NCBI GenBank assembly: GCA_031363565.1
Contig: JANLUQ010000365.1
Location: forward strand, 1 to 46,865
Direction of reading: 5' to 3'
Origin: Armatimonadota bacterium
GTDB lineage: Bacteria; Armatimonadota; Armatimonadia; Armatimonadales; Capsulimonadaceae
DNA length: 46,865 nucleotides
Shown in pieces: positions 9,114 to 38,674 of the stretch. Position numbers and translations under genes: made by a program. Under the pieces are notes generated by a model. The model was given only the letters and a program-made list of their open reading frames with translations. It searched no databases and was not told the DNA's origin. Each line of letters begins with the position of its first letter. The stretch's first letter is position 1.

Positions 9114-10022
9114 TCAGGCGCGCGGGTGCGTTCGGTCGTAGACCTCGCGCAGACGGGCTACGTCTACGCGTGTGTAGCGCTGGGTGGTCTGGACGCTGGC
9201 GTGGCCCAGCATCTCCTGGATGGCGCGCAGATCGGCCCCGCCGGAGAGCAGGTGGGTGGCGAAGGAGTGGCGAAGGACGTGGGGGGAGATGGTGCGGGCG
9301 ATGCCGGCCTGCTTGGCGTATGCCTTGACCAGAACGAGGAAGTGATGCCGGGTCATCGGGCCGCCCCGGCGGGTCACGAAGAGGAACGGCGTCGGCGGTT
9401 TGGTCGCAAGCAGGACGGGGCGAGCACTGGCGAGGTATGCCGTCAAGGTGTCGTGGACGCCGTCGCCGAGGGGCACTTGCCGTTGCTTGCCGCCCTTGCC
9501 GAAGGGGCGGAGGAGGCGGGCGCGCAGGTCCACGTCCTCGGACTTCAGGGCGACGAGTTCCGAGACGCGCAGACCGCAGCCGTACATGGTTTCCAGCATC
9601 GCTCGGTCGCGCAGGCCCGCCGGTGTTGCCTCAGGCGGGACTGTCAGCAGGCGCTCGATCTCAGGCAGGGAGAGAGTGGTCGGGAGGCGCTGCGCGAGTT
9701 TCCCCGCCTCAACCGCGAGGGTCGGATCGGTGGTAAGATGCCCGTCACGGCACAGGAACTGCATCCAGAGCCTCACCGAGATCGTCTTGCGCGCGATGCT
9801 GGCCGGGCGCAGTCCCTGCCGCCGCAGTCCAGCCAGAAAGCTGTAGACATGCCCCGGCGTGATTGCCTTGACCTCGGCAACATCCTGGGCGGCCAGCGAA
9901 GCGAGGAACTGCGTCAGGTCATAGCGGTAAGCGGTCAGCGTGTTGGCCGACAGGCCGCGCTCGGCGGACATGTTCGCCAGGAAGGCGTCCATGAGCCGCA
10001 CTGCGTCCGCTTTTCCCTCCAC
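9114..10022 (-). CDS. xerD: tyrosine recombinase XerD-like
   Basis: LRDRAMLETMYGCGLRVSELVAL, HVLRHSFATHLL, LGHASVQTTQRYTRV and a terminal HPRA, closely resembling XerD. GTG start overlaps the upstream stop (TAGTG). Confidence 0.75.
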   Translation of the reverse strand: MEGKADAVRLMDAFLANMSAERGLSANTLTAYRYDLTQFLASLAAQDVAEVKAITPGHVYSFLAGLRRQGLRPASIARKTISVRLWMQFLCRDGHLTTDPTLAVEAGKLAQRLPTTLSLPEIERLLTVPPEATPAGLRDRAMLETMYGCGLRVSELVALKSEDVDLRARLLRPFGKGGKQRQVPLGDGVHDTLTAYLASARPVLLATKPPTPFLFVTRRGGPMTRHHFLVLVKAYAKQAGIARTISPHVLRHSFATHLLSGGADLRAIQEMLGHASVQTTQRYTRVDVARLREVYDRTHPRA

Positions 10023-11578
10023 TAAGCCACTTCCGTCGGCACGATGCGGTCATCATTTTCCTGCAAGCCGGCCTCCTGCGTCTCGACCGGACGCGCGGAG
10101 GAGGCGGGGCGAGCGCGGGTCTCGGCCCAGAAGCGCAGGATGTCTATCTTCTCCTTCATGGTCTCGGACAGCGGTATGGACTGTTTGGCGGCCTTCAGGA
10201 TGTCATCGGTCAGGATGTCGCGGTCCTGGTTAAAGGCATCGTACATGGCCGCGATGATGGCCTGCTCGATCTCCGCCCCCGAATAGCCATTGGTCGCCTT
10301 CGCCAAGGCCTTGAGATCGAAGAGCGCGGGGTCGCGCCGCCGCTTTTTGAGGTGGATGGTGAAGATGTCCTCGCGCTCCGGCTCGTCCGGCAGGTCCACG
10401 AAGAAGATCTCATCAAAGCGGCCTTTTCGGAGCAGTTCGGGGGGAAGCGCGGACACGTCATTCGCGGTCGCCACGACGAAGCAGGGGGCGGTCTTGTCCT
10501 GAAGCCAGGCGAGGAAGGTGCCGAAGACCCGCGCGGTCGTCCCGCCGTCGCTGATTCCCGACGACTGTGTCCCCGAGAAGCCCTTTTCCAGCTCGTCTAT
10601 CCAGACGATATTCGGGGCGGTGCTTTCGGCCACCCGGATGGCTTTTCGAATATTCTCCTCGCTCTGTCCGACGATGCCGCCGAAGATCTTGCCCACGTCC
10701 ATGCGGAGGAGCGGCAGCTTCCAGAGCGACGCGATGGCCTTGCTCGAGAGTGATTTGCCGCAGCCCTGAACGCCCAAAATCAGGATGCCCTTAGGGGCGG
10801 GCAGGCCGTAGTCACGGGCCTTCTCGGTAAAGGCGACGGTGCGCTTGTCCATCCAATCTTTGAGCAGGTCCAGCCCGCCGACGTCCGCGAAGGCTTCGGA
10901 GGTTCGGTAATACTCCAGGATAGCCGATTTGCGGATGATCTGCTCTTTCTCGGACAGAATAACGTCGGTGTCGAACTTACGCCGCTCGACCAGGGACTTG
11001 GCGAAGACGTTCTCGGCCTCGGTCGCCGTCAGGCCCAGGGCGGCCTGCAAGACCTGCTCACGCTCCTCGGTCGTCATCTGCGTCTGCACCTGCGGGTTAG
11101 CCCGGACGGACTCGATGATGCTGTCCAACAGCCGCCCCAAATCTTCCAGCGATGGCAGGGCGTAGTCCACGACCGTGATCTCTTTTTCTAGCTCCGCCGG
11201 CAGTTTCAGCACGGGGGACAGCAGAATTAATGTCTTGTACGAGGTCTTGAGCGCATAGGTCAGATCGCGCAGGCGGCGGACGAGGGAGGTGTCATTGAGG
11301 AACGGATGGAAGTCTTTCAGCAGGAAGACGGCCTGGTCACGCGACTCCATCACGAAGTCTAAAGCGGCCAGTGGGTCGCGCGTGGCCTCATCGCGGTTGA
11401 GCGGGTTCAGCACCATTCCCTGCGTGACGGTCCACTGGTACATCTTCTTGTTGCGGGCCTTGGTGATAGCGCGCAGGGCCTCCTCAACGCGCTTCTCCTC
11501 CCAGGAGACGACGTAGATGATCGGGTAGCGCGCCCGGATCAAAGTTTCCAGTTCCGTGTCTACTTCGCTTTGTGGCAT
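10022..11578 (-). CDS. Ycf46-like AAA+ ATPase
   Basis: N-terminus LIRARYPIIYVVSWEEKRVEEAL resembles cyanobacterial/plastid Ycf46. Walker A GVQGCGKS, Walker B IVWIDELEK. Confidence 0.8.
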   Translation of the reverse strand: MPQSEVDTELETLIRARYPIIYVVSWEEKRVEEALRAITKARNKKMYQWTVTQGMVLNPLNRDEATRDPLAALDFVMESRDQAVFLLKDFHPFLNDTSLVRRLRDLTYALKTSYKTLILLSPVLKLPAELEKEITVVDYALPSLEDLGRLLDSIIESVRANPQVQTQMTTEEREQVLQAALGLTATEAENVFAKSLVERRKFDTDVILSEKEQIIRKSAILEYYRTSEAFADVGGLDLLKDWMDKRTVAFTEKARDYGLPAPKGILILGVQGCGKSLSSKAIASLWKLPLLRMDVGKIFGGIVGQSEENIRKAIRVAESTAPNIVWIDELEKGFSGTQSSGISDGGTTARVFGTFLAWLQDKTAPCFVVATANDVSALPPELLRKGRFDEIFFVDLPDEPEREDIFTIHLKKRRRDPALFDLKALAKATNGYSGAEIEQAIIAAMYDAFNQDRDILTDDILKAAKQSIPLSETMKEKIDILRFWAETRARPASSARPVETQEAGLQENDDRIVPTEVA

Positions 11579-30393: not shown

Positions 30394-31251
30394 ATGCGCT
30401 GGACGGAGATTATCATTGACGCGGGGCCGGAAGCGACCGACGCGGTGGGCGCGGCCTTGTACGCGGTGGGGTGCGGCGGCTTTGAGGTGCGCGAGGCCGC
30501 GGTGCCTCCCGCCATAGCTGGCTATTTACCCGTGGATGACCGGCTTGAAGACCGGTTAGGGCTACTCAAAGACGCCTTAGCCGCGCTGCCGGGCCATGGC
30601 GTCATCGGCGCGGGCACGGACCTGACCCTGCGTTATGTCGAGGAGGCCGATTGGGCGAACGCTTGGAAGGAGTTCTACAAGCCCTTCCGTGTGGGCCGCC
30701 GCCTAGTCGTGACGCCGCCCTGGGAACACCCCGAGCTGGCCCCTGACGACATCCCCCTGGTCATAGACCCCGGCATGGCCTTCGGGACCGGCAGCCACCC
30801 CACTACGCAGCTTTGCCTCGTTGCCCTGGAAGACTATGTCAGACCCGGTGCCCGCGTCGCAGACATCGGGACCGGCTCCGGCATCCTCGCCATCGCCGCC
30901 GCCAAGATGGGCGCGTCACACGTCGCAGCCAACGATAACGATCCGCTGGCTGTCCGGATCGCCCGTGAGAATGCTGCCGCTAACGGTGTCCCCGTTGAGA
31001 TCACGGATGCGCTGCCGACGGGGCAGTACGACGCTGTCGTCGCCAACATCCTGGCCGACGTCATCATCGGTATGGCAGAAGAGCTTCAGGTCCTGCTCGC
31101 GCCCGGCGGCGTCCTCCTCGCCTCCGGCATCATTGACACCCGCGAGGCCGACGTGCGGCTGGCACTGGAAGGCATCGGATTGAACCACCTGGAAACGCGG
31201 CGGCAGACGGAATGGGTCGCACTCGTCTTCCGGCAGGAGGCCGGGCACTAA
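30394..31251 (+). CDS. prmA: ribosomal protein L11 methyltransferase
   Basis: PrmA layout with SAM motif DIGTGSGILAIAAAKMGA. Conserved dnaJ-prmA-rsmE order. Confidence 0.9.
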   Translation: MRWTEIIIDAGPEATDAVGAALYAVGCGGFEVREAAVPPAIAGYLPVDDRLEDRLGLLKDALAALPGHGVIGAGTDLTLRYVEEADWANAWKEFYKPFRVGRRLVVTPPWEHPELAPDDIPLVIDPGMAFGTGSHPTTQLCLVALEDYVRPGARVADIGTGSGILAIAAAKMGASHVAANDNDPLAVRIARENAAANGVPVEITDALPTGQYDAVVANILADVIIGMAEELQVLLAPGGVLLASGIIDTREADVRLALEGIGLNHLETRRQTEWVALVFRQEAGH

Positions 31252-31404
31252 AGTACCCGTCTGGGAAGCCTGCGGCTGACCGCCCAAGGGACGGAATAGC
31301 AGGCCGGCAAAGAGCCGACTTGGCGAGTGTTCCACAATCCGCGCTCTCTCCCTCGCCCCCTGGACAGTCGGCGCAGCCTCTCAGACGGGTACTTTAGTGC
31401 CCGG
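31241..31404. repeat. MITE-like / long-hairpin palindromic element (23-bp perfect terminal inverted repeats)
   Basis: CCGGGCACTAAAGTACCCGTCTG (31241-31263) is the exact reverse complement of 31382-31404. The left arm contains the prmA stop codon. The inner flanks are partly complementary. Confidence 0.8.
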
Positions 31405-31440
31405 ACTTATTCAACCCACCATATCAGTGATTAAACCCTT

Positions 31441-32181: not shown

Positions 32182-32909
32182 TCCTGTTCGTTGACATTCA
32201 CAACCACATCCTGCCCGGCGTGGACGACGGCGCGCGCAGCCTGGCCGAGGCCCTGGAGATGGCACGGCAGGCCGTCGCGGTTGGCACGGACACGATGGTC
32301 GCCACACCCCACCGTGGCTGGTTTCTGGGTCGCCCCGCCCGGCCCGGGACCGTGCGTGAACATGTGGCGAGCTTGCAAGAGTCGCTGAACCGCGCCGGCA
32401 TCCCCCTGAAGATCGTGCCCGGCGTCGAGATTAAAATGGCCCCGCGCGTCGCCGATGACCTGGTAAACGGCGAGGCCGGAACCCTGGGCGATGCAGGACG
32501 CTGGGCGCTGATCGAGCCGCCCTTCGACCGCATCCCGGCGGGCGGTCTCGAAAGCCTGCGGAAAGTGGTCGAGGCAGGCTTCCACGTCGTCCTCGCCCAC
32601 CCGGAGCGCTGCGCCGAGGTTCAATCAAGCCTCACCTTTCTCGAAGCCTGCGCCGACTTGGGCCTGACCTTTCAGATTACCAGCGGCAGCCTATTGGGCC
32701 GCTTTGGGCCGCGCGCATTGGAGACGGCCCGCGCCATCCTCGCCCGCGATGCCGACTGGCCCCTCGTGATCGCTTCGGACACCCACGACCTCCATGACCG
32801 CTCCTGTGCCCTGCTCGGCGAGGCCCGCGACATCGCCGCCGCCCTGGTCGGGGAGGAGCGCGCGTTGGAAATGGTGGACGCCCGCCCACGCGCGATGATT
32901 ACGCCTTAG
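32181..32909 (+). CDS. PHP-family protein-tyrosine phosphatase (CpsB/YwqE-like); start codon non-canonical or lost
   Basis: ILFVDIHNHILPGVDDG is the family's metal-binding N-terminus. It lies upstream of the first canonical start (GTG 32220). ATC 32181 overlaps the rsmE stop (TAATC). Confidence 0.65.
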   Translation: MLFVDIHNHILPGVDDGARSLAEALEMARQAVAVGTDTMVATPHRGWFLGRPARPGTVREHVASLQESLNRAGIPLKIVPGVEIKMAPRVADDLVNGEAGTLGDAGRWALIEPPFDRIPAGGLESLRKVVEAGFHVVLAHPERCAEVQSSLTFLEACADLGLTFQITSGSLLGRFGPRALETARAILARDADWPLVIASDTHDLHDRSCALLGEARDIAAALVGEERALEMVDARPRAMITP

Positions 32910-32959
32910 CGTCTTTTCCGACACCCCCGCAATCCGCCCTCTTGTTCTTCCAGTAAGCT

Positions 32960-32967
32960 GCCGATAA
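32960..32967 (+). promoter_or_regulatory. sigma-28 (FliA)-type -10 box GCCGATAA, 7 nt before the flgB ATG
   Basis: Exact GCCGATAA. No TAAA -35 at the canonical spacing and no Shine-Dalgarno before flgB. Confidence 0.3.
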
Positions 32968-32974
32968 TAGCGGC

Positions 32975-33370
32975 ATGGATACCAGCACTTTTACCGCGCT
33001 GTCGCAGGCCCTGGACTTAGGCTCCGCGCGCCTCCAAGCCATCTCCAACAACCTCTCCAATATCAACACGCCCGGCTTCAAGCGCCAGGACGCCACCTTT
33101 GCCGCCCTGCTCCAGTCGGCGGAAGCGGGCGACTCTTTGACGCAGGCTGCGCCCGACCCGCGCCACCTGACGTTGGGCGATGACGGCGGGAGCAGTTCGC
33201 CCGCGCTCGTGACCCAGAGCAGCGGCTCGATGCGGCCCGATGGCAACAATGTGGACATTGATGCCGAGACCAGCCGGATGGCCGCCGCCGAGATCTACTA
33301 TCAGGGCGCGGCGCAGCTTCTCAGCGGGCAGTTCTCAGGCATGAAGTATGTGATTTCAGGAGGGCGCTAA
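32975..33370 (+). CDS. flgB: flagellar basal-body rod protein FlgB
   Basis: LQAISNNLSNINTPGFKRQD rod-protein N-terminal signature. Size and position fit flgB. Confidence 0.9.
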   Translation: MDTSTFTALSQALDLGSARLQAISNNLSNINTPGFKRQDATFAALLQSAEAGDSLTQAAPDPRHLTLGDDGGSSSPALVTQSSGSMRPDGNNVDIDAETSRMAAAEIYYQGAAQLLSGQFSGMKYVISGGR

Positions 33371-33373
33371 CCG

Positions 33374-33826
33374 ATGGGATTTATGGACACGCTGGCGATC
33401 AGCGCCTCGGGCATGACGGCGGAGCGGCTGCGAATGGATGTCGTCGCCAACAACCTGGCGAATGTCAACACGACGCGCACGCCGGGCGGCGGGCCGTTCC
33501 GGCGCGAGCAGGTCGCGATGGCCCCGGCCTCGGCCTCCTTCGGCGAGACCCTGGCGGGCCTCTCCGGCGACAACGGCGGGGCGGAAGCCGTGCAGGGCGG
33601 CGTGCAGGTGTCGGGCATCGTCCCCGACATGCGCCCTTTTAAGCGCGTCTACCAGCCCGGACACCCGGACGCCGACAAGCAAGGCTACGTCAACCTGCCG
33701 AATGTGGACACCGTGACCGAGATGGTGGACATGATGGGCGCGACCCGCGCCTACGAGGCGAACGTCGCCGCCGTCGGAGCCGTCAAGGGAATGGCGATGA
33801 AGGCGATGGAGATCGGGCGGGCATAG
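33374..33826 (+). CDS. flgC: flagellar basal-body rod protein FlgC
   Basis: SGMTAERLRMDVVANNLANVNTTRTPGG and C-terminal RAYEANVAAVGAVKGMAMKAMEIGR. Confidence 0.92.
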   Translation: MGFMDTLAISASGMTAERLRMDVVANNLANVNTTRTPGGGPFRREQVAMAPASASFGETLAGLSGDNGGAEAVQGGVQVSGIVPDMRPFKRVYQPGHPDADKQGYVNLPNVDTVTEMVDMMGATRAYEANVAAVGAVKGMAMKAMEIGRA

Positions 33827-33839
33827 GCGAAACCCAGGC

Positions 33840-34273
33840 TCAGACGCTCCAGTCCACCGCCTGCACGCCGGGGATCTGCTGGAAATGCCGCAGGTTGGCG
33901 GTCACGACCGTGAGCCGCCGGTTGATGGCACTCGCAGCAACACGGCAATCGCGTGTTCCCACTCGTTTGACCGCCGCCGACCAGCTCTGATAGAGGTCTT
34001 CATCCGCCTCGGTGTACGGCAGTGTTTGGAACTGCCGCAGAAATTCCTGGGTCAGCACGAGGTCACGATAAGCAACGGGGATGAGGAGAGTGTCTTTGGG
34101 TCGGGCTGGATTCAGTTTCGCGAGGACCCCAACCGCCCCCGGAACTGCTCCTCCACAACGACGGCAGGCAGCCAGAGTTTGGCTGGCGGAACAGCCAACG
34201 CCCGCGGGTTTAAGAGACTGCTGCGTCCTCGGAAGAGAAGACTTGCAGTGTCGTTGTCCAGCGCGAAGATGGC
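33840..34273 (-). pseudogene. PIN-domain (VapC-like) toxin gene, frameshifted and without a canonical start
   Basis: The N-terminal half (AIFALDNDTASLLFRG...VVVEEQFRGRLG) is in one frame. The C-terminal half (YRDLVLTQEFLRQFQTLPYTEAD...RLTVVTANLRHFQQIPGVQ) is in another. They switch at G/C runs near 34127-34140. Confidence 0.6.
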
Positions 34274-34474
34274 CTACTCGACCAGCCCATGCTTCTGGTC
34301 TATTTCCCGCCGCGACTGTTCCATCTCTTGAAGGAACTCGTCCCACAGCGGGTCATCCGCAAACCCGCCGATGACACGGGTGAGCGGATGCTCCTCCGGC
34401 GGCGTGGTTCCGTGCGTGCCGTTATGCTCCGCTATTGGCGTCTCCACCGCGACCTTATCTTTAACGATTTCCAT
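34274..34474 (-). CDS. putative antitoxin partner of the PIN toxin (66 aa)
   Basis: Small acidic ORF ending DDPLWDEFLQEMEQSRREIDQKHGLVE, directly abutting the PIN gene. Confidence 0.5.
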   Translation of the reverse strand: MEIVKDKVAVETPIAEHNGTHGTTPPEEHPLTRVIGGFADDPLWDEFLQEMEQSRREIDQKHGLVE

Positions 34475-34521
34475 AACCGACAGTTTACCCCATCTGCCTC
34501 ATGTCCTCAACCGCATTGAAG

Positions 34522-34620
34522 AACATGATGAGCGCCACGCGCCTACGAGGCGAACGTCGCCGCCGTCGGAGCGGTCAAGGGCATGGCGATGAAGACACTG
34601 AAGATTGGAAGGGCGGCGTC
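34522..34620 (+). pseudogene. duplicated, degenerate 3' end of flgC
   Basis: 34539-34572 is identical to 33747-33780 (34 nt), and flanking similarity extends to about 70 bp. It has a 1-nt deletion relative to flgC and encodes ..AYEANVAAVGAVKGMAMKTLKIGRA. Confidence 0.8.
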
Positions 34621-34682
34621 CACTAGACCTCACCGTTCGACGACTGCCGCGCCGTCCCCTGACCGTCATCCAAAGGGTGCTC

Positions 34683-34979
34683 CTAAGAGGTTAAGTCATA
34701 ATCATCCGGCTTGGAATGGCGTTTTTCCTTTAGATAAGTCAGAAGAGTTACCCAGGCTCCACATATGCCTCCCACAAGTCCATACCACAAGCCCACATGA
34801 GGCCACCACCATTGTATATGAGCTAGACTGATATTTGGGGGGTCACAAATCAAGTAAGTTGCAAAACAGACCAAAGGCACAAATAACGTCGCCGACAGAA
34901 AAGTCAACAACAGTTTAATCCAGAGAACGTCCGTCCATCTTTTCATTTTGTATTTGACCTTTTGATGAACAGCCGCCAT
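34683..34979 (-). CDS. small three-TM membrane protein, candidate immunity protein
   Basis: AT-rich ORF with hydrophobic segments, 41 nt downstream of the glycine-zipper ORF. The position is typical of immunity genes. Confidence 0.45.
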   Translation of the reverse strand: MAAVHQKVKYKMKRWTDVLWIKLLLTFLSATLFVPLVCFATYLICDPPNISLAHIQWWWPHVGLWYGLVGGICGAWVTLLTYLKEKRHSKPDDYDLTS

Positions 34980-35019
34980 ATGGGAGGCGGCTGTTCAACT
35001 CCAAGGGTTGATCCACCGG

Positions 35020-35193
35020 CTATTCCATTGTATGGAACATCCGGTTGTAGCCCTCACCGTTTGCCCTTCTTTGGTACGCCTCTGCCGCTGCTACGCCAGC
35101 AGCGAAGCCCAGAACGCCACCTACCGGACCACCCACGCCGAAGCCGATTGCGCCACCGACCATCCCGGCGGCTATGTTCCCAACTACATGCAA
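35020..35193 (-). CDS. glycine-zipper membrane peptide (57 aa), in frame with the RHS fragment across a TAG
   Basis: Not in the ORF track (under 60 aa). Sequence: (M)HVVGNIAAGMVGGAIGFGVGGPVGGVLGFAAGVAAAEAYQRRANGEGYNRMFHTME. Only TAG plus one codon separate it from the upstream ORF. Confidence 0.4.
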   Translation of the reverse strand: MHVVGNIAAGMVGGAIGFGVGGPVGGVLGFAAGVAAAEAYQRRANGEGYNRMFHTME

Positions 35194-35196
35194 TGC

Positions 35197-35685
35197 CTAT
35201 CCACGAGTGATAGGAATGAGGCCCCCAGCAGGCTGGTTGTTACGTGAAGTTGGGAAAGACTGGGCAGAGCTCGGGGATCTAGGTGGTGGTAAATTTCGCG
35301 TTGGATCAACTGCTCCCTGATGCCCGCTGGGATCGCTGAAGTTGATGGGGTCGCTGTCGCAGTAGGCGTAGGGCTTTTGGCTCAGAACCGTGTCCCGCGT
35401 CAGGAAGCACCCGAACTCCGGGTCGTAGTAGCGCGCCCCCACCTTCAGCAGAGCCGCCGCATACGTCGGCCCGAACCCGTCCGAGCGGTAGCCGCTCTTT
35501 GCACCCCATCGGTAGGGATTCGCCGTACTTCCGCTTGAAGAGGAGACCATGCCATACCCCTGGTACGAACCCGACCACTGCACCACTGGGCTACCGTTGC
35601 CCGTCGTCTGGCGCACTGCCCCCAGGCCGTCATACAGCAGCGTCTCCCCACCGGTGCTTACCAGCCCGTTCCCGTACAGGTTCAT
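35197..35685 (-). CDS. RHS repeat-associated core fragment (orphan C-terminal module)
   Basis: YD repeat LLYDGLGAVRQTT, then the core end GARYYDPEFGCFLTRDTVL..PYAYCDSDPINFSDPSGH (DPxG cleavage motif). The frame is open upstream through a TM-like segment but has no start codon there. Confidence 0.7.
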   Translation of the reverse strand: MNLYGNGLVSTGGETLLYDGLGAVRQTTGNGSPVVQWSGSYQGYGMVSSSSGSTANPYRWGAKSGYRSDGFGPTYAAALLKVGARYYDPEFGCFLTRDTVLSQKPYAYCDSDPINFSDPSGHQGAVDPTRNLPPPRSPSSAQSFPTSRNNQPAGGLIPITRG

Positions 35686-35924
35686 ACTCGAGGAGGTCTG
35701 GTTCGACTGCGTCAGCGTTGCGTTCCCGTCAAAAGGAGCTTGTAGGATAGGCAGAAAGAAGACTGTGACGAGAAGGGTGACAAAGAGCGTCAGGAATGAG
35801 AGACATGGCCGAGAGACGTGGCCGAGAGAGGTTGGGCAGTGGGTGTGCCTGTCACGAGAAAGGTCATCGTAGGAGTCTCCTTTACAACGCGCAGCAGACG
35901 CTCGATTGTTTCTGCGATGAAAAT

Positions 35925-35953
35925 AGTGTAGAGCTTATTTCGAGGTTTGTCAA
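35925..35953 (-). promoter_or_regulatory. sigma-70-like promoter firing into the RHS cassette, toward flgC
   Basis: Minus strand: TTGACA (35953..35948), 17 nt, TACACT (35930..35925). Confidence 0.4.
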
Positions 35954-36041
35954 GCGAACCTCAAAAAATCTTATGAAATATACGTGAGGGGGAGATTTTT
36001 GGCCAACAATGCCATGTACCCTACTCTTCCAATTTACACTT

Positions 36042-36049
36042 GCCGATAA
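36042..36049 (+). promoter_or_regulatory. sigma-28 (FliA)-type -10 box GCCGATAA
   Basis: Exact GCCGATAA about 80 nt upstream of the FlgM-like ORF. No canonical TAAA -35. Confidence 0.3.
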
Positions 36050-36129
36050 CAATACAAGGCATCATATTCAAGGCAGGATGCCGCTCGAGAGGGATTTTGT
36101 CCCCACCGGTACAAATTCAGGAGGATACA

Positions 36130-36354
36130 ATGAGAGTCATTTACTCGGGGGCTTCCCCGAAACCCATAGTCGGCACATCTCGCAACGCGGCACCAGCACA
36201 GGAGGCCGGCTTTGCACCGGCCGCGACGCCGGCGCCGGCCGCTACCGTGGAGATCTCGTCTGCTGCGCGTGGGGCTTACTCCAAAGGGGAGCAGCACGCG
36301 CCCACCCACAAGATACGCCCTCTCAATATCATCTGGGGCAATAGTCCGAAATAG
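36130..36354 (+). CDS. short FlgM-like (anti-sigma-28) candidate, 74 aa
   Basis: ATG 36130 follows CAGGAGG. Disordered Ala/Pro-rich N-terminal half, then TVEISSAARG resembling the FlgM (D)KVELS motif. The C-terminal helices are short or absent. Confidence 0.3.
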   Translation: MRVIYSGASPKPIVGTSRNAAPAQEAGFAPAATPAPAATVEISSAARGAYSKGEQHAPTHKIRPLNIIWGNSPK

Positions 36355-36554
36355 CGTCTGGGTCAGCCTCGCGGTGGCCGATAGCCTCCCGCTCCGGTTT
36401 TGGAGCAGGGGGCTGTTGTTTTGTCTGCGGCCTGACGAAAAAAACTGTGACTTTCTCCAGGGCCTTATGGAACAATCCGCATGTCAAGCCGAGGGCCACT
36501 GCCGATTAGCAGGCGGCGGCCCGCCATTTTCCAGGCATTTCCCAGGAGAACTTC

Positions 36555-36875
36555 ATGAACTTATCCGCATTATCCGCGACCGCACTTCCCTCAGCGACCG
36601 GCATCTCCGATGCGGCGGCCGGCCTGCTCGGGTCGGACGCCAAGACGTCCGATTCCCCCTCCTTCGGCCAGATGCTGCAAAGCGCCTTCGGGCAGGTCAG
36701 CGCCCTCCAGGACCATTCGGCGCAGATGACCCAGGCGTTCGCGCGGGGCCAGGTCAGCGATGTCCACAGCGTCATGATCGCCTCGGAGCAGGCGACGATG
36801 GCCTTGCAGCTGACAACCCAGGTCCGCAACAAAGCGATAGACGCCTACCAGGAGATCATGCGGATCAGCATCTAG
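36555..36875 (+). CDS. fliE: flagellar hook-basal body complex protein FliE
   Basis: SFGQMLQSAFGQVSALQ...DVHSVMIASEQATMALQLTTQVRNKAIDAYQEIMRI. Confidence 0.9.
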   Translation: MNLSALSATALPSATGISDAAAGLLGSDAKTSDSPSFGQMLQSAFGQVSALQDHSAQMTQAFARGQVSDVHSVMIASEQATMALQLTTQVRNKAIDAYQEIMRISI

Positions 36876-36952
36876 GGTGCGGCGGGATTACGGCTCTGAC
36901 GGGCCGCTTTAGACAAGCCCTTTTAGGGGTCGGGACAGGGGAGCACTAAGCG

Positions 36953-38674
36953 TTGGCAATCGCAACGAGTTGGGGAGAATCACTGCGCGTCTGGTGGCAG
37001 GGCGCGACACCAGCGACGCGGGCCATGGCGACGGGCCTGGTCCTGCTGATGGTCGTCGGCCTGGCCGTCGCCGCCTCGCTGGCCGCCAGCCCGGACTACC
37101 ACGCGATCTATCACGGCGTCAGCGGCAAGGACGCCTCAGCGATCGAGGCCGTTCTGCGCGAGAAGTCCATCGCCATGCACTTCGACGACAAGGATGGGAC
37201 GATCAGCGTCCCCGCCAAGGACGAGAGCAATGCTTTTATGTATATCGAGGCGGCGGGCATCCTCTCCAAAGACACGGTCGTGGACGGCCTGGGCGATATT
37301 GATAAGATCACCATCGGCACCACGCCCGAGGTCGAGCGCCAAAGGATGCTGAACGAGGCGCAGGGGGAGCTGTCCCGCAAGCTGATGCGCCTCGACCCCG
37401 TCCAGACCGCCGCCGTCTCGCTCGCGCTGCCCAGTGAGTCGTCCTTCGTCGGCGAGGAAACGCCGCCGTCGGCCAGCGTCATCCTGACGCTCAAGCAGGG
37501 CGAGAGCCTGAGCGGGCTTCAGGTCAAGGGCATCGTCAACCTCATTGCCCATGCCGTTCCCAGCCTGACCACGCAGAACGTGGCCCTGACCGACCAGACC
37601 GGCGTCCCACTGTGGAAAGACAACGGCGCGGGCGGGGTCGGCACGGACGGCACCTTGATGGCCGAGAACGACAAGTTCAGCGAGGACAAGCGGAAAGTCG
37701 TCCAGGGCCTACTCGATCAGACGGTCGGGCGCGGCAAGGCCGTCGTCACCGTCAATGCCGAACTCAGCCAGGATGTCGTCACGCGGCGCTCGGTCCAGCA
37801 TACGCCCTCACCCGGCCTGCGGACGGGCCTGCCGGTCAGCATCCGCGACAAGCAGGAGACCTACAGCGGGGCAGGCGGGCCGGGGGCGGTGGGCGGCATC
37901 GCCGGAGCGGGTGGCAACCTGAATGTTCCTTCCTACCAGACCGGCGGCGGTGCGGCAGGCGGCGGCAAGTATTCGACGGGCGACACCGTCACCAATTATG
38001 AGAACGATGTCACCGAGACCAAGACCGAGGTCGCGCCGGGCGACCTCAAGAAGCTATCCGTCGCCGCACTCGTGGATACCAGCGTCCCTGCTGAGACGGT
38101 TGCCACGCTGAAAGAATCCATCGCCTTCGCCGTGGGCGCGCTCCCCGGCGACAACACCCGCATCGTCTCAGTCCGTCAGGTCGCCTTCGACATGAGTTCG
38201 CAGAAGGCGCAGGCCGGGCAGGCGCAGACATTGGCCTCGCAGGCACTCATGATCACCATTGCCCGTACCCTCGCCGTCTGCGCCGTCGCCATCGTCCTCC
38301 TGATCCTCCTGACGCGCTCATCCGGCCGCCGAGCCGCTTCCCCACAGCTTGCGCTGGCCGGTGGCGGGGCTAACATCGGCCTCCTGGACCCGATGCCGGA
38401 CGCCGAAATGGCCGCCATTCTGGATTCGGGCGGCGTGCGCGGCATGGAGCGTGGGATGGAGCATGTGCTGGAAGAGCGCCCGCTGACCGTCGAGGACGTG
38501 CTGGCCGAGATGCCGGACCCCGAAGGCCGCCCGCGCCGCCGGGCGCGCGCCCCCTCCATCGAGGAGCAGCAGGACCTCAAGATGGAAAGCATCCGCACCA
38601 TGATCAATGCCCACCCCGAAAGCGTTTCCCTGCTGCTCAAGGGCTGGATGGCCGACGATGTGAAAGTCTCTTAA
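36953..38674 (+). CDS. fliF: flagellar M-ring protein FliF
   Basis: 573 aa with N- and C-terminal TM helices and the YscJ/FliF ring domain pattern. TTG start after GGGGAG. Confidence 0.9.
   Translation: MAIATSWGESLRVWWQGATPATRAMATGLVLLMVVGLAVAASLAASPDYHAIYHGVSGKDASAIEAVLREKSIAMHFDDKDGTISVPAKDESNAFMYIEAAGILSKDTVVDGLGDIDKITIGTTPEVERQRMLNEAQGELSRKLMRLDPVQTAAVSLALPSESSFVGEETPPSASVILTLKQGESLSGLQVKGIVNLIAHAVPSLTTQNVALTDQTGVPLWKDNGAGGVGTDGTLMAENDKFSEDKRKVVQGLLDQTVGRGKAVVTVNAELSQDVVTRRSVQHTPSPGLRTGLPVSIRDKQETYSGAGGPGAVGGIAGAGGNLNVPSYQTGGGAAGGGKYSTGDTVTNYENDVTETKTEVAPGDLKKLSVAALVDTSVPAETVATLKESIAFAVGALPGDNTRIVSVRQVAFDMSSQKAQAGQAQTLASQALMITIARTLAVCAVAIVLLILLTRSSGRRAASPQLALAGGGANIGLLDPMPDAEMAAILDSGGVRGMERGMEHVLEERPLTVEDVLAEMPDPEGRPRRRARAPSIEEQQDLKMESIRTMINAHPESVSLLLKGWMADDVKVS

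What the first reader, a model, noticed from the sequence alone, without database searches (positions are those of the whole stretch)
33728..34620. Duplicated flgC 3' end brackets a toxin-antitoxin cassette (recombination scar)
The last roughly 70-95 bp of flgC recur about 790 bp downstream. Positions 34539-34572 are identical to 33747-33780, and the flanks are similar. The second copy has a 1-nt deletion and a divergent tail (MAMKTLKIGRA versus MAMKAMEIGRA). The two direct copies enclose exactly the PIN/antitoxin pair. This is the footprint expected if cargo entered by recombination using flgC homology, for example DNA from a relative carrying its own flgC end, or by a duplicative insertion. 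It marks the boundary of foreign DNA inside a core operon.
Basis: seen in the sequence. Interest (0 to 1): 0.7.

Follow-up and report, generated by a model that had tools for sequence, protein, structure and literature searches.

The report
Displaced flgC ends mark stacked insertions
The second copy of the flgC gene end is real: it is the former end of the gene, pushed downstream when a toxin-antitoxin pair arrived with a replacement end, and relatives show the same process repeated many times at this site inside a flagellar gene cluster.

Summary
The repeat is real. Window 33729-33822 (flgC 3' end) recurs at 34523-34614 at 87% identity, with a 35-nt exact core. The indel is 2 nt, not 1. The two copies bracket a VapBC-like pair whose PIN toxin is dead: it has lost its start codon and carries a 1-nt deletion.

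The organism is a Capsulimonadaceae bacterium (Armatimonadota). In 28 more distant relatives flgC and fliE lie 9-500 nt apart, which is the empty site. In the window's clade the gap holds 1-9 kb islands. Eleven distinct loci carry one to three truncated flgC ends, starting -35 to -141 nt before the stop.

Each remnant keeps the stop codon and neighbour that sit next to the real flgC in another genome. Three unrelated toxin-antitoxin pairs occupy the flgC-proximal slot in three lineages. No integrase was found.

In the five least-decayed pairs, 25 of 27 differences between real and remnant copies lie at third codon positions. The two copies were therefore two functional alleles.

Best explanation: sequential displacement by recombination anchored in flgC, as in Rhs and T6SS orphan arrays. 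The copy is an inner layer boundary, not the island's edge. The island runs to about 36040 and includes a dead Rhs remnant. This is a new variant of a known kind, of moderate interest.

The parts
32975..33370 (+). flgB (131 aa), part of the conserved left flank and homology anchor
   Evidence: Pfam Flg_bb_rod. Syntenic in all related loci.
33374..33826 (+). flgC, intact (150 aa). Its last ~98-111 nt (33716/33729-33826) form repeat copy 1.
   Evidence: Pfam Flg_bb_rod + Flg_bbr_C. The protein is identical in at least 20 metagenome contigs. The C-terminus is near-invariant across the family.
33840..34270 (-). PIN-domain (VapC-like) toxin pseudogene. The start codon is ATG->ATC at 34270-34268 and there is a 1-nt deletion near 34127/34128. 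Its stop lies 13 nt from the flgC stop.
   Evidence: Pfam PIN on the C-terminal part. The intact 143-aa orthologues in L094-L098 and L102 hit PIN and, below NCBIfam's curated cutoffs, VapC models. The alignment shows both lesions, shared with L093.
34274..34474 (-). Putative antitoxin (66 aa), intact. Its stop is 3 nt from the ancestral PIN start.
   Evidence: ORF. It is conserved with PIN in L094-L098, L102, L130 and L141 at 68-76% aa. It has no Pfam or NCBIfam family.
34475..34522 (.). Spacer between the antitoxin start and the clear flgC homology. It is possibly a strongly diverged stretch of flgC (-140..-99). It carries a weak promoter-like TTGAGG-17-TAAACT on the minus strand.
   Evidence: Derived features (a 5-nt deletion, 'CAGTTTACC..CCTCA') are shared by all copy-B orthologues and by L001 copy C. 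The promoter reading is by eye, scores 8/12 and was not called by the scan.
34523..34617 (+). flgC' remnant (copy B), the displaced former flgC 3' end. It is frameshifted by a 2-nt deletion, its stop codon is lost (GCG), and its tail has decayed.
   Evidence: Orthologous remnants sit at the same place in L001, L005, L094-L098 and L102.
34683..34979 (-). mem98, a small predicted membrane protein. It is inferred to be the immunity protein of the adjacent Rhs tip. Local GC is low (46-48%).
   Evidence: ORF. It is conserved after a flgC' remnant in L001, L012 and L097. No family was found. GC. The immunity role is inferred from position only.
35020..35685 (-). Rhs remnant. It comprises an Rhs-associated core fragment (35200-35685) and a glycine-zipper C-terminal tip (35023-35193) in one frame, split by a TGA at 35197-35199. 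The N-terminal ~750 aa are missing.
   Evidence: TIGR03696 Rhs_assc_core at 48 bits against a cutoff of 32.5. It is colinear with the last 240 aa of the 993-aa RHS-repeat protein of L097 (51% identity, E 1e-61), where the window's stop aligns with Q.
36130..36354 (+). orf74, a conserved small ORF upstream of fliE in close relatives. It lies near the right edge of the variable region.
   Evidence: 93-99% aa identity in L001, L006-L008, L011 and L012, with a partial match in L013. No family was found.
36555..36875 (+). fliE, the right-hand conserved flank. Its conserved upstream element starts at about 36435-36468.
   Evidence: Pfam FliE. Homology with relatives, including empty-site ones, resumes at 36435-36468.

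Best explanation
Copy B (34523-34617) is a former 3' end of flgC. It was displaced downstream, together with its old neighbour (mem98 and the Rhs module), when DNA carrying a different functional flgC 3' end plus a VapBC-like toxin-antitoxin pair recombined into the locus. The incoming DNA was anchored by homology in the highly conserved flgB-flgC genes.

The right-hand junction fell inside the resident flgC end. The gene was therefore rebuilt from the incoming end, and the resident end survived as a truncated remnant.

The flgC-fliE spacer of Capsulimonadaceae is a permissive hotspot where this has happened repeatedly. The newest layer lies next to flgC, and older layers, each headed by a flgC' remnant, lie further out.

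Two points are inferred. First, additive events are the ones that survive. A clean replacement would delete resident antitoxin or immunity genes, and the tiny spacer (12-66 nt) between flgC and the convergent neighbour leaves flgC itself as almost the only tolerated junction target. Second, once a cargo is flanked by flgC and flgC', it can move or be lost by ordinary homologous recombination, and the remnants serve as internal homology anchors.

In the window the system is now decaying. Both toxins (PIN and Rhs) are dead, while the antitoxin and the putative immunity ORF are intact.

Shown: the anatomy, the recurrence, the layering, the two-allele signature and the absence of an integrase. Inferred: the molecular route (one-sided homology plus an illegitimate join for the founding events, then two-armed homologous recombination for spread) and the role of selection.
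For: 1. Empty versus filled sites. In 28 related loci flgC and fliE are 9-500 nt apart. The window's clade has 1.1-9.4 kb islands.

2. Remnants. Eleven distinct loci carry 1-3 truncated flgC ends. All run to the stop codon, and their 5' limits vary from -35 to -141.

3. Layering. Each remnant keeps the stop codon and downstream neighbour that flank the real flgC elsewhere.
- L005 remnant to c11 matches L001 real to c11. L005 equals L001 plus 2.2 kb plus a 142-nt duplication.
- L028 remnant 1 to ADH matches L016.
- L028 remnant 2 (TGA stop) to GH26 matches L015.
- L095 remnant to the TPR-like gene is colinear with L014 real flgC and its neighbour.

4. Cargo. Three unrelated TA pairs occupy the flgC-proximal slot: PIN + 66 aa in the window's clade, YoeB/ParE + Phd/YefM in L028, and another PIN + 78 aa in L101.

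5. Two-allele signature. Real-versus-remnant differences by codon position 1/2/3 are L005 0/0/5, L028 0/0/6, L094 1/0/7, L095 1/0/5 and L102 0/0/2, and 4/0/6 in the window. For the five pooled pairs (25 of 27 at position 3), P = 2e-10 against 1/3 and 3e-6 against 1/2. The L095 remnant carries the L097-specific 'AIKG' allele.

6. Hybrid remnant. The L005 remnant differs from L001 real flgC at 7 of the first 94 nt and then at only 7 of the next ~840 nt. This is what a crossover inside the repeat would give.

7. No recombinase. 38 island ORFs from related loci were scanned with Pfam, and the precomputed annotation was checked. Only IS3 fragments turned up in L001-type loci.

8. Published analogue. 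The same logic is described for T6SS effector-immunity arrays and Rhs orphans (PMC5361080).
Against: - No donor sequence is in hand for any founding event. Microhomology at the illegitimate junctions could not be examined.
- For L005 versus L001, gain and loss (loop-out between the repeats) cannot be told apart.
- The third-position bias shows that the two copies were functional alleles. It does not prove that the allele swap and the cargo arrived in one event.
- Copy B and L001 copy C share a derived 5' flank. This implies that remnants are also copied as remnants, which the simple model does not predict.
- All 5' limits lie within the last 142 nt of flgC. The explanation offered for this (longer repeats are lost by recombination) is untested.
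- Natural competence or any other DNA-uptake route is unknown for these uncultured lineages.
Confidence: 0.72

Rival explanations
1. Site-specific integration. A mobile element with a tyrosine or serine integrase used the flgC 3' end as attB and carried a replacement end in attP, as phage 21 does at icd or SGI1 at trmE. The integrase and most of the element were later deleted, leaving only cargo.
For: The gross anatomy fits: the gene is rebuilt, a divergent partial copy sits at the far end, and serial insertions would stack. TA modules are known to stabilise such islands (PMC5006074).
Against: - No integrase or recombinase was found in any island, including the clean 2.2-kb L005 insertion that holds a single Asp-protease gene.
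- The remnant 5' limits differ in every independent event: -35, -67, -86, -98, -110, -121 and -141.
- There are no matches in viral contigs or plasmids.
- The flgC end has no unusual fold.
Confidence: 0.08
2. An in-situ duplication of the resident flgC end (tandem duplication or a long target-site duplication) occurred during insertion of a TA cassette from elsewhere in the same genome. The extra copy then decayed neutrally.
For: Tandem duplications are common. The window's copy B shows real decay: a 2-nt deletion, a lost stop codon and 3 non-synonymous codons. L096-L098 remnants are heavily decayed at all codon positions.
Against: - In the five least-decayed pairs, 25 of 27 differences are third-position or synonymous. 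This is incompatible with copies that started identical and had one copy drifting.
- The L095 remnant matches another lineage's functional allele better than its own.
- Later allele replacement of the real gene could mimic this pattern, so the rival is not fully excluded.
Confidence: 0.12
3. The remnant is a selected functional element. Candidates are a promoter or operator region for the TA operon, an antisense RNA against the flgC mRNA when read from the minus strand, or a small FlgC C-terminal peptide that interferes with rod assembly.
For: - The remnant sits directly upstream of the antitoxin start (48 nt).
- Its 5' flank is conserved among orthologues.
- Some relatives have short ORFs that end in the FlgC C-terminal helix (L005 51 aa with Flg_bbr_C, L095 48 aa).
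- The window keeps a 35-nt exact match to flgC.
Against: - The flgC-derived part decays freely in L096-L098, with 21-30 of 92 positions differing from real flgC and changes at all codon positions.
- The window copy is frameshifted.
- No significant RNA or DNA structure was found (z = -1.6 and +0.8) and there is no Rfam hit.
- The promoter scan did not call a site there.
Confidence: 0.05
4. Assembly artefact: a chimeric join or a mis-collapsed repeat in a metagenome assembly.
For: The window is probably metagenome-derived, as are nearly all comparison contigs.
Against: - The same arrangement is tiled by independent assemblies L093 and L012 at about 99-100% identity.
- Orthologous flgC-TA-remnant structures occur on single contigs from many samples and species, including a 4.1-Mb single-contig chromosome.
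- The longest exact repeat is 35 nt.
Confidence: 0.01

Closest known systems
Sequential displacement in T6SS effector-immunity arrays of Vibrio cholerae (Kirchberger et al. 2017, PMC5361080) and C-terminal displacement / orphan arrays at Rhs and CDI loci (Jackson et al. 2009 and Poole et al. 2011, as cited in PMC5361080)
   Same: - A conserved gene serves as the homology anchor.
- A new module is added next to it.
- The old 3' fragment and the old immunity gene are shifted downstream.
- Layers accumulate, with no integrase.
- Homology-facilitated illegitimate recombination is proposed for the founding events and ordinary homologous recombination for spread.
   Different: - The anchor here is a housekeeping flagellar rod gene (flgC), not the toxin gene itself.
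- The displaced pieces are ends of a core structural gene.
- The cargo includes type II TA pairs and metabolic genes as well as Rhs modules.
- The array grows from the flgC side while a separate Rhs orphan array grows from the fliE side of the same island.
Integrase-mediated insertion into the 3' end of a protein gene with a replacement end. Examples: SGI1 at trmE and dusA-targeting islands (PMC8409611, PMC5006074); phage 21/e14 at icd (from my own knowledge, not checked here)
   Same: The target gene is rebuilt by the incoming DNA. A partial, divergent copy is left at the other end. TA modules can stabilise the island.
   Different: No integrase is present. There is no fixed crossover core, because the junctions are variable. 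Cargo can be as small as 0.6-0.8 kb.
Core-gene-flanked integration hotspots maintained by homologous recombination in the flanks (general concept, from my own knowledge, e.g. Oliveira et al. 2017)
   Same: There is a hypervariable accessory region between two conserved core genes, and its content differs among near-identical strains.
   Different: The hotspot here lies inside a flagellar gene cluster. It also leaves a readable stratigraphy of duplicated flank-gene ends, which ordinary two-armed replacement does not produce.
Chromosomal integron cassette arrays
   Same: Cargo is ordered and same-orientation, new units are added at one end, repeated boundary elements separate them, and TA cassettes are present.
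   Different: There is no intI. The boundary repeat is a gene fragment with no attC-like structure, and its boundaries are variable.

Membership tests
Type II toxin-antitoxin, VapBC-like | PIN-domain toxin | tested here: met
   Pfam PF01850 on the window C-terminal part (E 5e-5) and on the intact L095 orthologue (E 1e-8). NCBIfam VapC models gave partial hits below their curated cutoffs.
Type II toxin-antitoxin, VapBC-like | Small antitoxin gene immediately upstream in one operon | tested here: met
   A 66-aa ORF at 34474-34274 has its stop 3 nt from the ancestral PIN start. The pair is co-conserved in 9 loci.
Type II toxin-antitoxin, VapBC-like | Intact, translatable toxin gene | tested here: not met
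   The window, L012 and L093 share a 1-nt deletion; the window and L093 also share ATG->ATC. Orthologues in L094-L098 and L102 are intact.
Type II toxin-antitoxin, VapBC-like | Antitoxin belongs to a known DNA-binding antitoxin family | tested here: inconclusive
   No Pfam or NCBIfam hit. Structure was not predicted.
Integrase-mediated integrative element at a gene 3' end | Integrase or recombinase gene within or beside the insert | tested here: not met
   38 island ORFs from related loci were scanned in Pfam, together with precomputed annotation. None was a recombinase. Only IS3 HTH fragments were found, in L001-type loci.
Integrase-mediated integrative element at a gene 3' end | Same crossover core or boundary in independent insertions | tested here: not met
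   Remnant 5' limits are -35, -67, -86, -98, -110, -121 and -141.
Integrase-mediated integrative element at a gene 3' end | Target gene rebuilt, with a partial direct repeat at the far end | tested here: met
Sequential displacement array (Rhs / T6SS-EI type) | Intact conserved anchor gene at the head, with truncated 3' copies of it downstream | tested here: met
Sequential displacement array (Rhs / T6SS-EI type) | Each displaced fragment keeps its former downstream neighbour, and simpler intermediate arrangements exist in other genomes | tested here: met
   L005/L001, L028/L016, L028/L015 and L095/L014.
Sequential displacement array (Rhs / T6SS-EI type) | The anchor is the polymorphic toxin gene itself | tested here: not met
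   The anchor is flgC. This is why the case is filed as a variant and not as a member.
Sequential displacement array (Rhs / T6SS-EI type) | Illegitimate junction at microhomology (HFIR signature) | not testable with these tools
   No donor (pre-insertion) sequence was found for any founding event.
Rhs polymorphic toxin locus | RHS/YD repeats and an Rhs-associated core before a variable C-terminal tip | tested here: met
   The window fragment hits TIGR03696 above its cutoff. The full 993-aa homologue in L097 has 13 RHS repeats. The window piece is colinear with its C-terminus. The window copy is truncated and carries a nonsense codon.
Integron cassette array | intI integrase and structured attC sites | tested here: not met
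   No integrase was found. The flgC end folds no better than shuffles (z +0.84).

The most novel reading that the evidence does not exclude
The flgC' remnants may be more than scars. They could make the island an integrase-free, homology-driven cassette system. Any cargo flanked by flgC and flgC' carries portable homology on both sides. It can then be looped out, taken up and re-inserted next to flgC in any relative by RecA-type recombination alone. TA and immunity genes would make each gain hard to reverse. This would be a general route by which hotspots next to highly conserved core genes grow layer by layer. The hybrid remnants of L005 and L095, and the same TA-plus-flank unit sitting in front of six different neighbours, are what this predicts. 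Vertical descent with later turnover is not excluded.
Probability: 0.3. Interest if true: 0.65.

Novelty: new variant of a known kind. Interest (0 to 1): 0.5.

Why it matters
The locus is an unusually readable natural record of how accessory genes pile up beside a conserved core gene without any dedicated recombinase. Each layer is stamped with the gene end it displaced, so the order of events can be read and checked against intermediate genomes.

It extends the displacement logic known for polymorphic-toxin loci to a housekeeping flagellar gene in a poorly studied phylum (Armatimonadota). It also links TA and immunity addiction to the survival of additive insertions rather than replacements.

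On the practical side, truncated flank-gene ends could be used as markers to find and date such hotspots in metagenomes. For the window itself the outcome is modest: an old, decaying scar with dead toxins.

Tried and rejected
- Chance: rejected. The 35-nt exact core gave 0 of 100 shuffles.
- Misassembly: rejected by independent assemblies.
- tRNA or att-type target: no tRNA or tmRNA in the window.
- Known RNA family in 32500-37000: none at E <= 1.
- attC-like or other structure of the flgC end or of the minus-strand transcript: not significant.
- Phage or plasmid origin: no exact-pattern hit in viral contigs and no blastn hit of the cassette in PLSDB.
- Integrase search in island cargo: four Pfam batches found none.
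- A further remnant at 35914-35932, suggested by a 19-nt 79% match: reading the sequence shows no flgC similarity, so it is chance. A weak protein-level match in L001 at 9631-9699 (E 0.21) was left as unproven.
- Does copy B match another lineage's real FlgC tail? None of about 70 relatives ends in KTLKIGRAAST. The CTG (Leu) codon fits the common 'ALE' allele, but the tail is otherwise decayed.
- Gene conversion as the main reason for the similarity: only a weak own-genome signal (L028, L102, L101). Remnants are generally closer to any real flgC than to each other, as expected for independent decay.
- The greedy longest-ORF gene calling mislabelled the antisense strand of the TA region in several loci. 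This was corrected by tblastn and by direct ORF reading.
Full report
**1. The observation**

flgC occupies 33374-33826 (+). It has Pfam Flg_bb_rod and Flg_bbr_C domains. Its last ~95 nt recur 792-794 nt downstream.
- 33740-33822 matches 34532-34614 without gaps at 87%.
- With a gap allowed, 33729-33822 matches 34523-34614.
- Weaker similarity (73%) reaches back to 33716 / 34510.
- The exact core is 35 nt, 33746-33780 = 34538-34572. None of 100 dinucleotide shuffles gave a match.
- The offset shifts from 794 to 792, so the indel is 2 nt, not 1.
- The second copy reads ...RAYEANVAAVGAVKGMAMKTLKIGRAAST*. The flgC stop codon has become GCG.

Between the copies lie only two minus-strand genes, a PIN-domain gene and a 66-aa ORF directly upstream of it.

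**2. The toxin is dead**

An alignment with intact 143-aa orthologues shows two lesions in the window's PIN gene. The start codon is ATG->ATC (34270-34268) and there is a 1-nt deletion near 34127/34128. Both recur in the independent assembly L093, and the frameshift also recurs in L012, so they are real. The antitoxin ORF is intact.

**3. Context and organism**

- Left flank: dnaK, dnaJ, prmA, rsmE, a CpsB-like gene, flgB and flgC.
- Right flank: fliE (36555-36875), fliF, fliG, fliH, fliI and fliJ.
- Closest genomes: Capsulimonadaceae / Armatimonadota MAGs.

flgC and fliE are 2.7 kb apart in the window, and everything between them is on the minus strand:
- the TA pair;
- copy B;
- a 98-aa membrane protein (mem98);
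- an Rhs remnant (35020-35685).

The Rhs remnant hits TIGR03696 Rhs_assc_core. It is colinear with the last 240 aa of a 993-aa protein in L097 that has 13 RHS repeats (51% identity, E 1e-61). It lacks the N-terminal ~750 aa. It also carries an in-frame TGA where L097 has Gln.

So copy B is not the edge of the foreign DNA. Homology with the nearest TA-less relative (L013) resumes at about 36041. Homology with empty-site relatives resumes at about 36435.

**4. Empty and filled sites**

A tblastn survey covered 172 fetched loci.
- 28 relatives have flgC and fliE 9-500 nt apart, typically 200-300 nt.
- About 20 loci have 1.1-9.4 kb between the two genes.

Contigs that encode the very same FlgC protein as the window differ completely in this interval. 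The site is therefore a hypervariable hotspot, and empty sites exist.

**5. The duplication is recurrent and layered**

Searching each locus with its own flgC end found extra truncated copies in eleven distinct arrangements. All run to the stop codon. Their 5' limits differ:

| Locus / copy | 5' limit (nt before stop) |
|---|---|
| Window and its orthologues | -98 |
| L001 second copy | -110 |
| L005 | -141 |
| L028 first remnant | -121 |
| L028 second remnant | about -35 |
| L101 | -86 |
| L097 second copy | -67 |

Each remnant is followed by the sequence that follows the real flgC in some other genome.
- L005 equals L001 plus a 2.2-kb insert (one Asp-protease gene) plus a 142-nt duplication.
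- The first remnant of L028, with a TAG stop, runs into the ADH gene exactly as the real flgC of L016 does.
- The second remnant of L028, with a TGA stop, runs into GH26 exactly as the real flgC of L015 does.
- The L095 remnant plus its TPR-like neighbour is one continuous 614-nt alignment with the real flgC end of L014 plus its neighbour.

This is a stratigraphy. The newest layer is next to flgC, and each older layer is headed by the flgC end it once abutted.

**6. Cargo**

Three unrelated TA pairs occupy the slot between the real flgC and the first remnant:

| Lineage | Toxin | Antitoxin |
|---|---|---|
| Window clade | PIN | 66-aa ORF |
| L028 | YoeB/ParE | Phd/YefM |
| L101 | A different PIN | 78-aa ORF |

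Other layers hold Rhs C-terminal orphans with small ORFs, TPR proteins, retropepsin-like proteases, and ADH and GH26 genes. None of the 38 island ORFs scanned from related loci is a recombinase. Only IS3 fragments occur, in L001-type loci.

**7. Two alleles, not one duplicated allele**

Differences between the real end and the remnant of the same genome fall almost only on third codon positions in the less decayed pairs:

| Pair | Codon position 1/2/3 |
|---|---|
| L005 | 0/0/5 |
| L028 | 0/0/6 |
| L094 | 1/0/7 |
| L095 | 1/0/5 |
| L102 | 0/0/2 |
| Window | 4/0/6 |

The five pairs above the window pool to 25 of 27 at position 3. The probability is 2e-10 against even spread. It is 3e-6 even if only the real copy were constrained. 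Both copies therefore spent most of their divergence as parts of working flgC genes.
- The L095 remnant carries the non-synonymous 'AIKG' variant of its sister lineage L097. It has 3 mismatches to L097's real end and 7 to its own.
- The L005 remnant is a hybrid. It differs from L001 at 7 sites in its first 94 nt and at only 7 sites in the next ~840 nt.

**8. Age and fate**

The TA pair and its remnant, with a shared derived 5' flank, occur in the window, L001, L005, L094-L098 and L102. TA divergence (77-87% nt) is in line with the neighbouring housekeeping genes (78-91%). The layer is therefore old.

Remnants decay at very different rates, from 7 to 30 of 92 positions different from real flgC. 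Decay touches all codon positions in L096-L098. The flgC-derived part is thus not under conserved constraint. No structure, Rfam family or tRNA is involved.

**9. Mechanism**

- Shown: the insertions rebuild flgC, displace the old end with its neighbour, recur with variable junctions, involve no resident recombinase, and join two different functional alleles.
- Inferred for founding events: recombination anchored by homology in flgB-flgC, the best-conserved DNA of the neighbourhood (about 90% identity versus about 80-85%), with an illegitimate join at the other end.
- Published parallel: this is the model proposed for T6SS effector-immunity arrays and Rhs orphans (PMC5361080).
- Why the join lands in flgC (my inference): the convergent neighbour ends only 12-66 nt from the flgC stop. 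Losing that neighbour (an antitoxin or immunity gene) would be selected against.
- After founding: a cargo flanked by flgC and flgC' can spread or be lost by ordinary homologous recombination. The hybrid remnants fit this.

Gain versus loss cannot be resolved for L005/L001. The shared derived flank of copy B and L001 copy C remains unexplained.

**10. Verdict**

The finding is real and correctly read as a recombination scar. It is one old inner layer of a recurrent sequential-displacement hotspot, not a recent event and not the island boundary.

It is a new variant of a known kind of process: displacement arrays, here anchored on a core flagellar gene, with TA pairs as frequent cargo. Interest is moderate.

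Noticed in passing
window 35020-35685 (-): This is an N-terminally truncated Rhs toxin remnant. An Rhs-associated core and a glycine-zipper (MccV/DUF456-like) tip lie in one frame, split by a TGA where the full-length L097 homologue has Gln. Both toxins of the island (PIN and Rhs) are dead, while the antitoxin and the putative immunity ORF (mem98, 34683-34979) are intact.
   Followed up: yes
L095, L097, L099, L101 (fliE-proximal part of the island): Full-size Rhs genes (850-1093 aa) sit next to fliE on the minus strand. They are followed toward flgC by several orphan Rhs C-terminal fragments with small ORFs. In L097 two such orphans lie between two flgC' remnants. The island thus holds two displacement arrays that grow from opposite ends.
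   Followed up: partly
window 31238-31407: A 170-nt element with 32-nt terminal inverted repeats (91% complementary, 106 nt apart) lies between prmA and rsmE. This interval carries an indel in L005 and L007 relative to the window and L001. It could be a small MITE-like or REP-like element.
   Followed up: no
window 36130-36354 (+): orf74 has a good ribosome-binding site and is 93-99% conserved upstream of fliE in close relatives. It contains a 'VEISSAA' stretch that, from memory, resembles FlgM-type anti-sigma factors. It has no Pfam or NCBIfam hit.
   Followed up: partly
window 34650-35100 and 35700-36150: Two low-GC stretches (45-48%) stand out against about 65% around them. The second has no convincing ORF. 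It carries the only sigma-70-like promoter matches of the region, on the minus strand upstream of the Rhs remnant (35953-35925 and 36006-35977).
   Followed up: no
L001 6453-6949 versus window 33827-34306: In L001-type contigs (same FlgC protein, about 99% identical flanks) the PIN gene and the last ~10 codons of the antitoxin are replaced by about 500 nt of unrelated sequence with an 83-aa ORF of unknown family. The break lies at window 34306/34307.
   Followed up: partly
L001 8726-9543 and 10256-10393 / 11183-11320: IS3-family transposase fragments (HTH_Tnp_1, HTH_21) lie inside the island. A 138-nt direct repeat (98%) flanks the Rhs fragment, and the window has only one copy of it.
   Followed up: no
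L005 5794-7785, L007 3107-4201, L100 11958-12968: Retropepsin-like aspartyl protease proteins (Asp_protease_2 / gag-asp_proteas; 336-663 aa) recur as cargo of this hotspot in several lineages. Their role is unknown.
   Followed up: no
L116 12437-17040: The same flgC-fliE hotspot in a more distant relative holds four tandem paralogues of an NAD-dependent epimerase-like gene, plus TetR and aldo-keto reductase genes (9.4-kb island). No flgC remnant was detected there.
   Followed up: no
L024 10468-12840, L027 10459-15242 and L029, L030 (flgC-fliE interval); L094 1832-8256 (downstream of flgC): In L094, flgC, the TA pair and the remnant are followed by MOSC, acetate kinase and phosphoketolase genes, with no fliE on the contig. 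The flagellar cluster may be split there. L024, L027, L029 and L030 carry Rhs-related ORFs in this interval, with no detectable flgC remnant.
   Followed up: no
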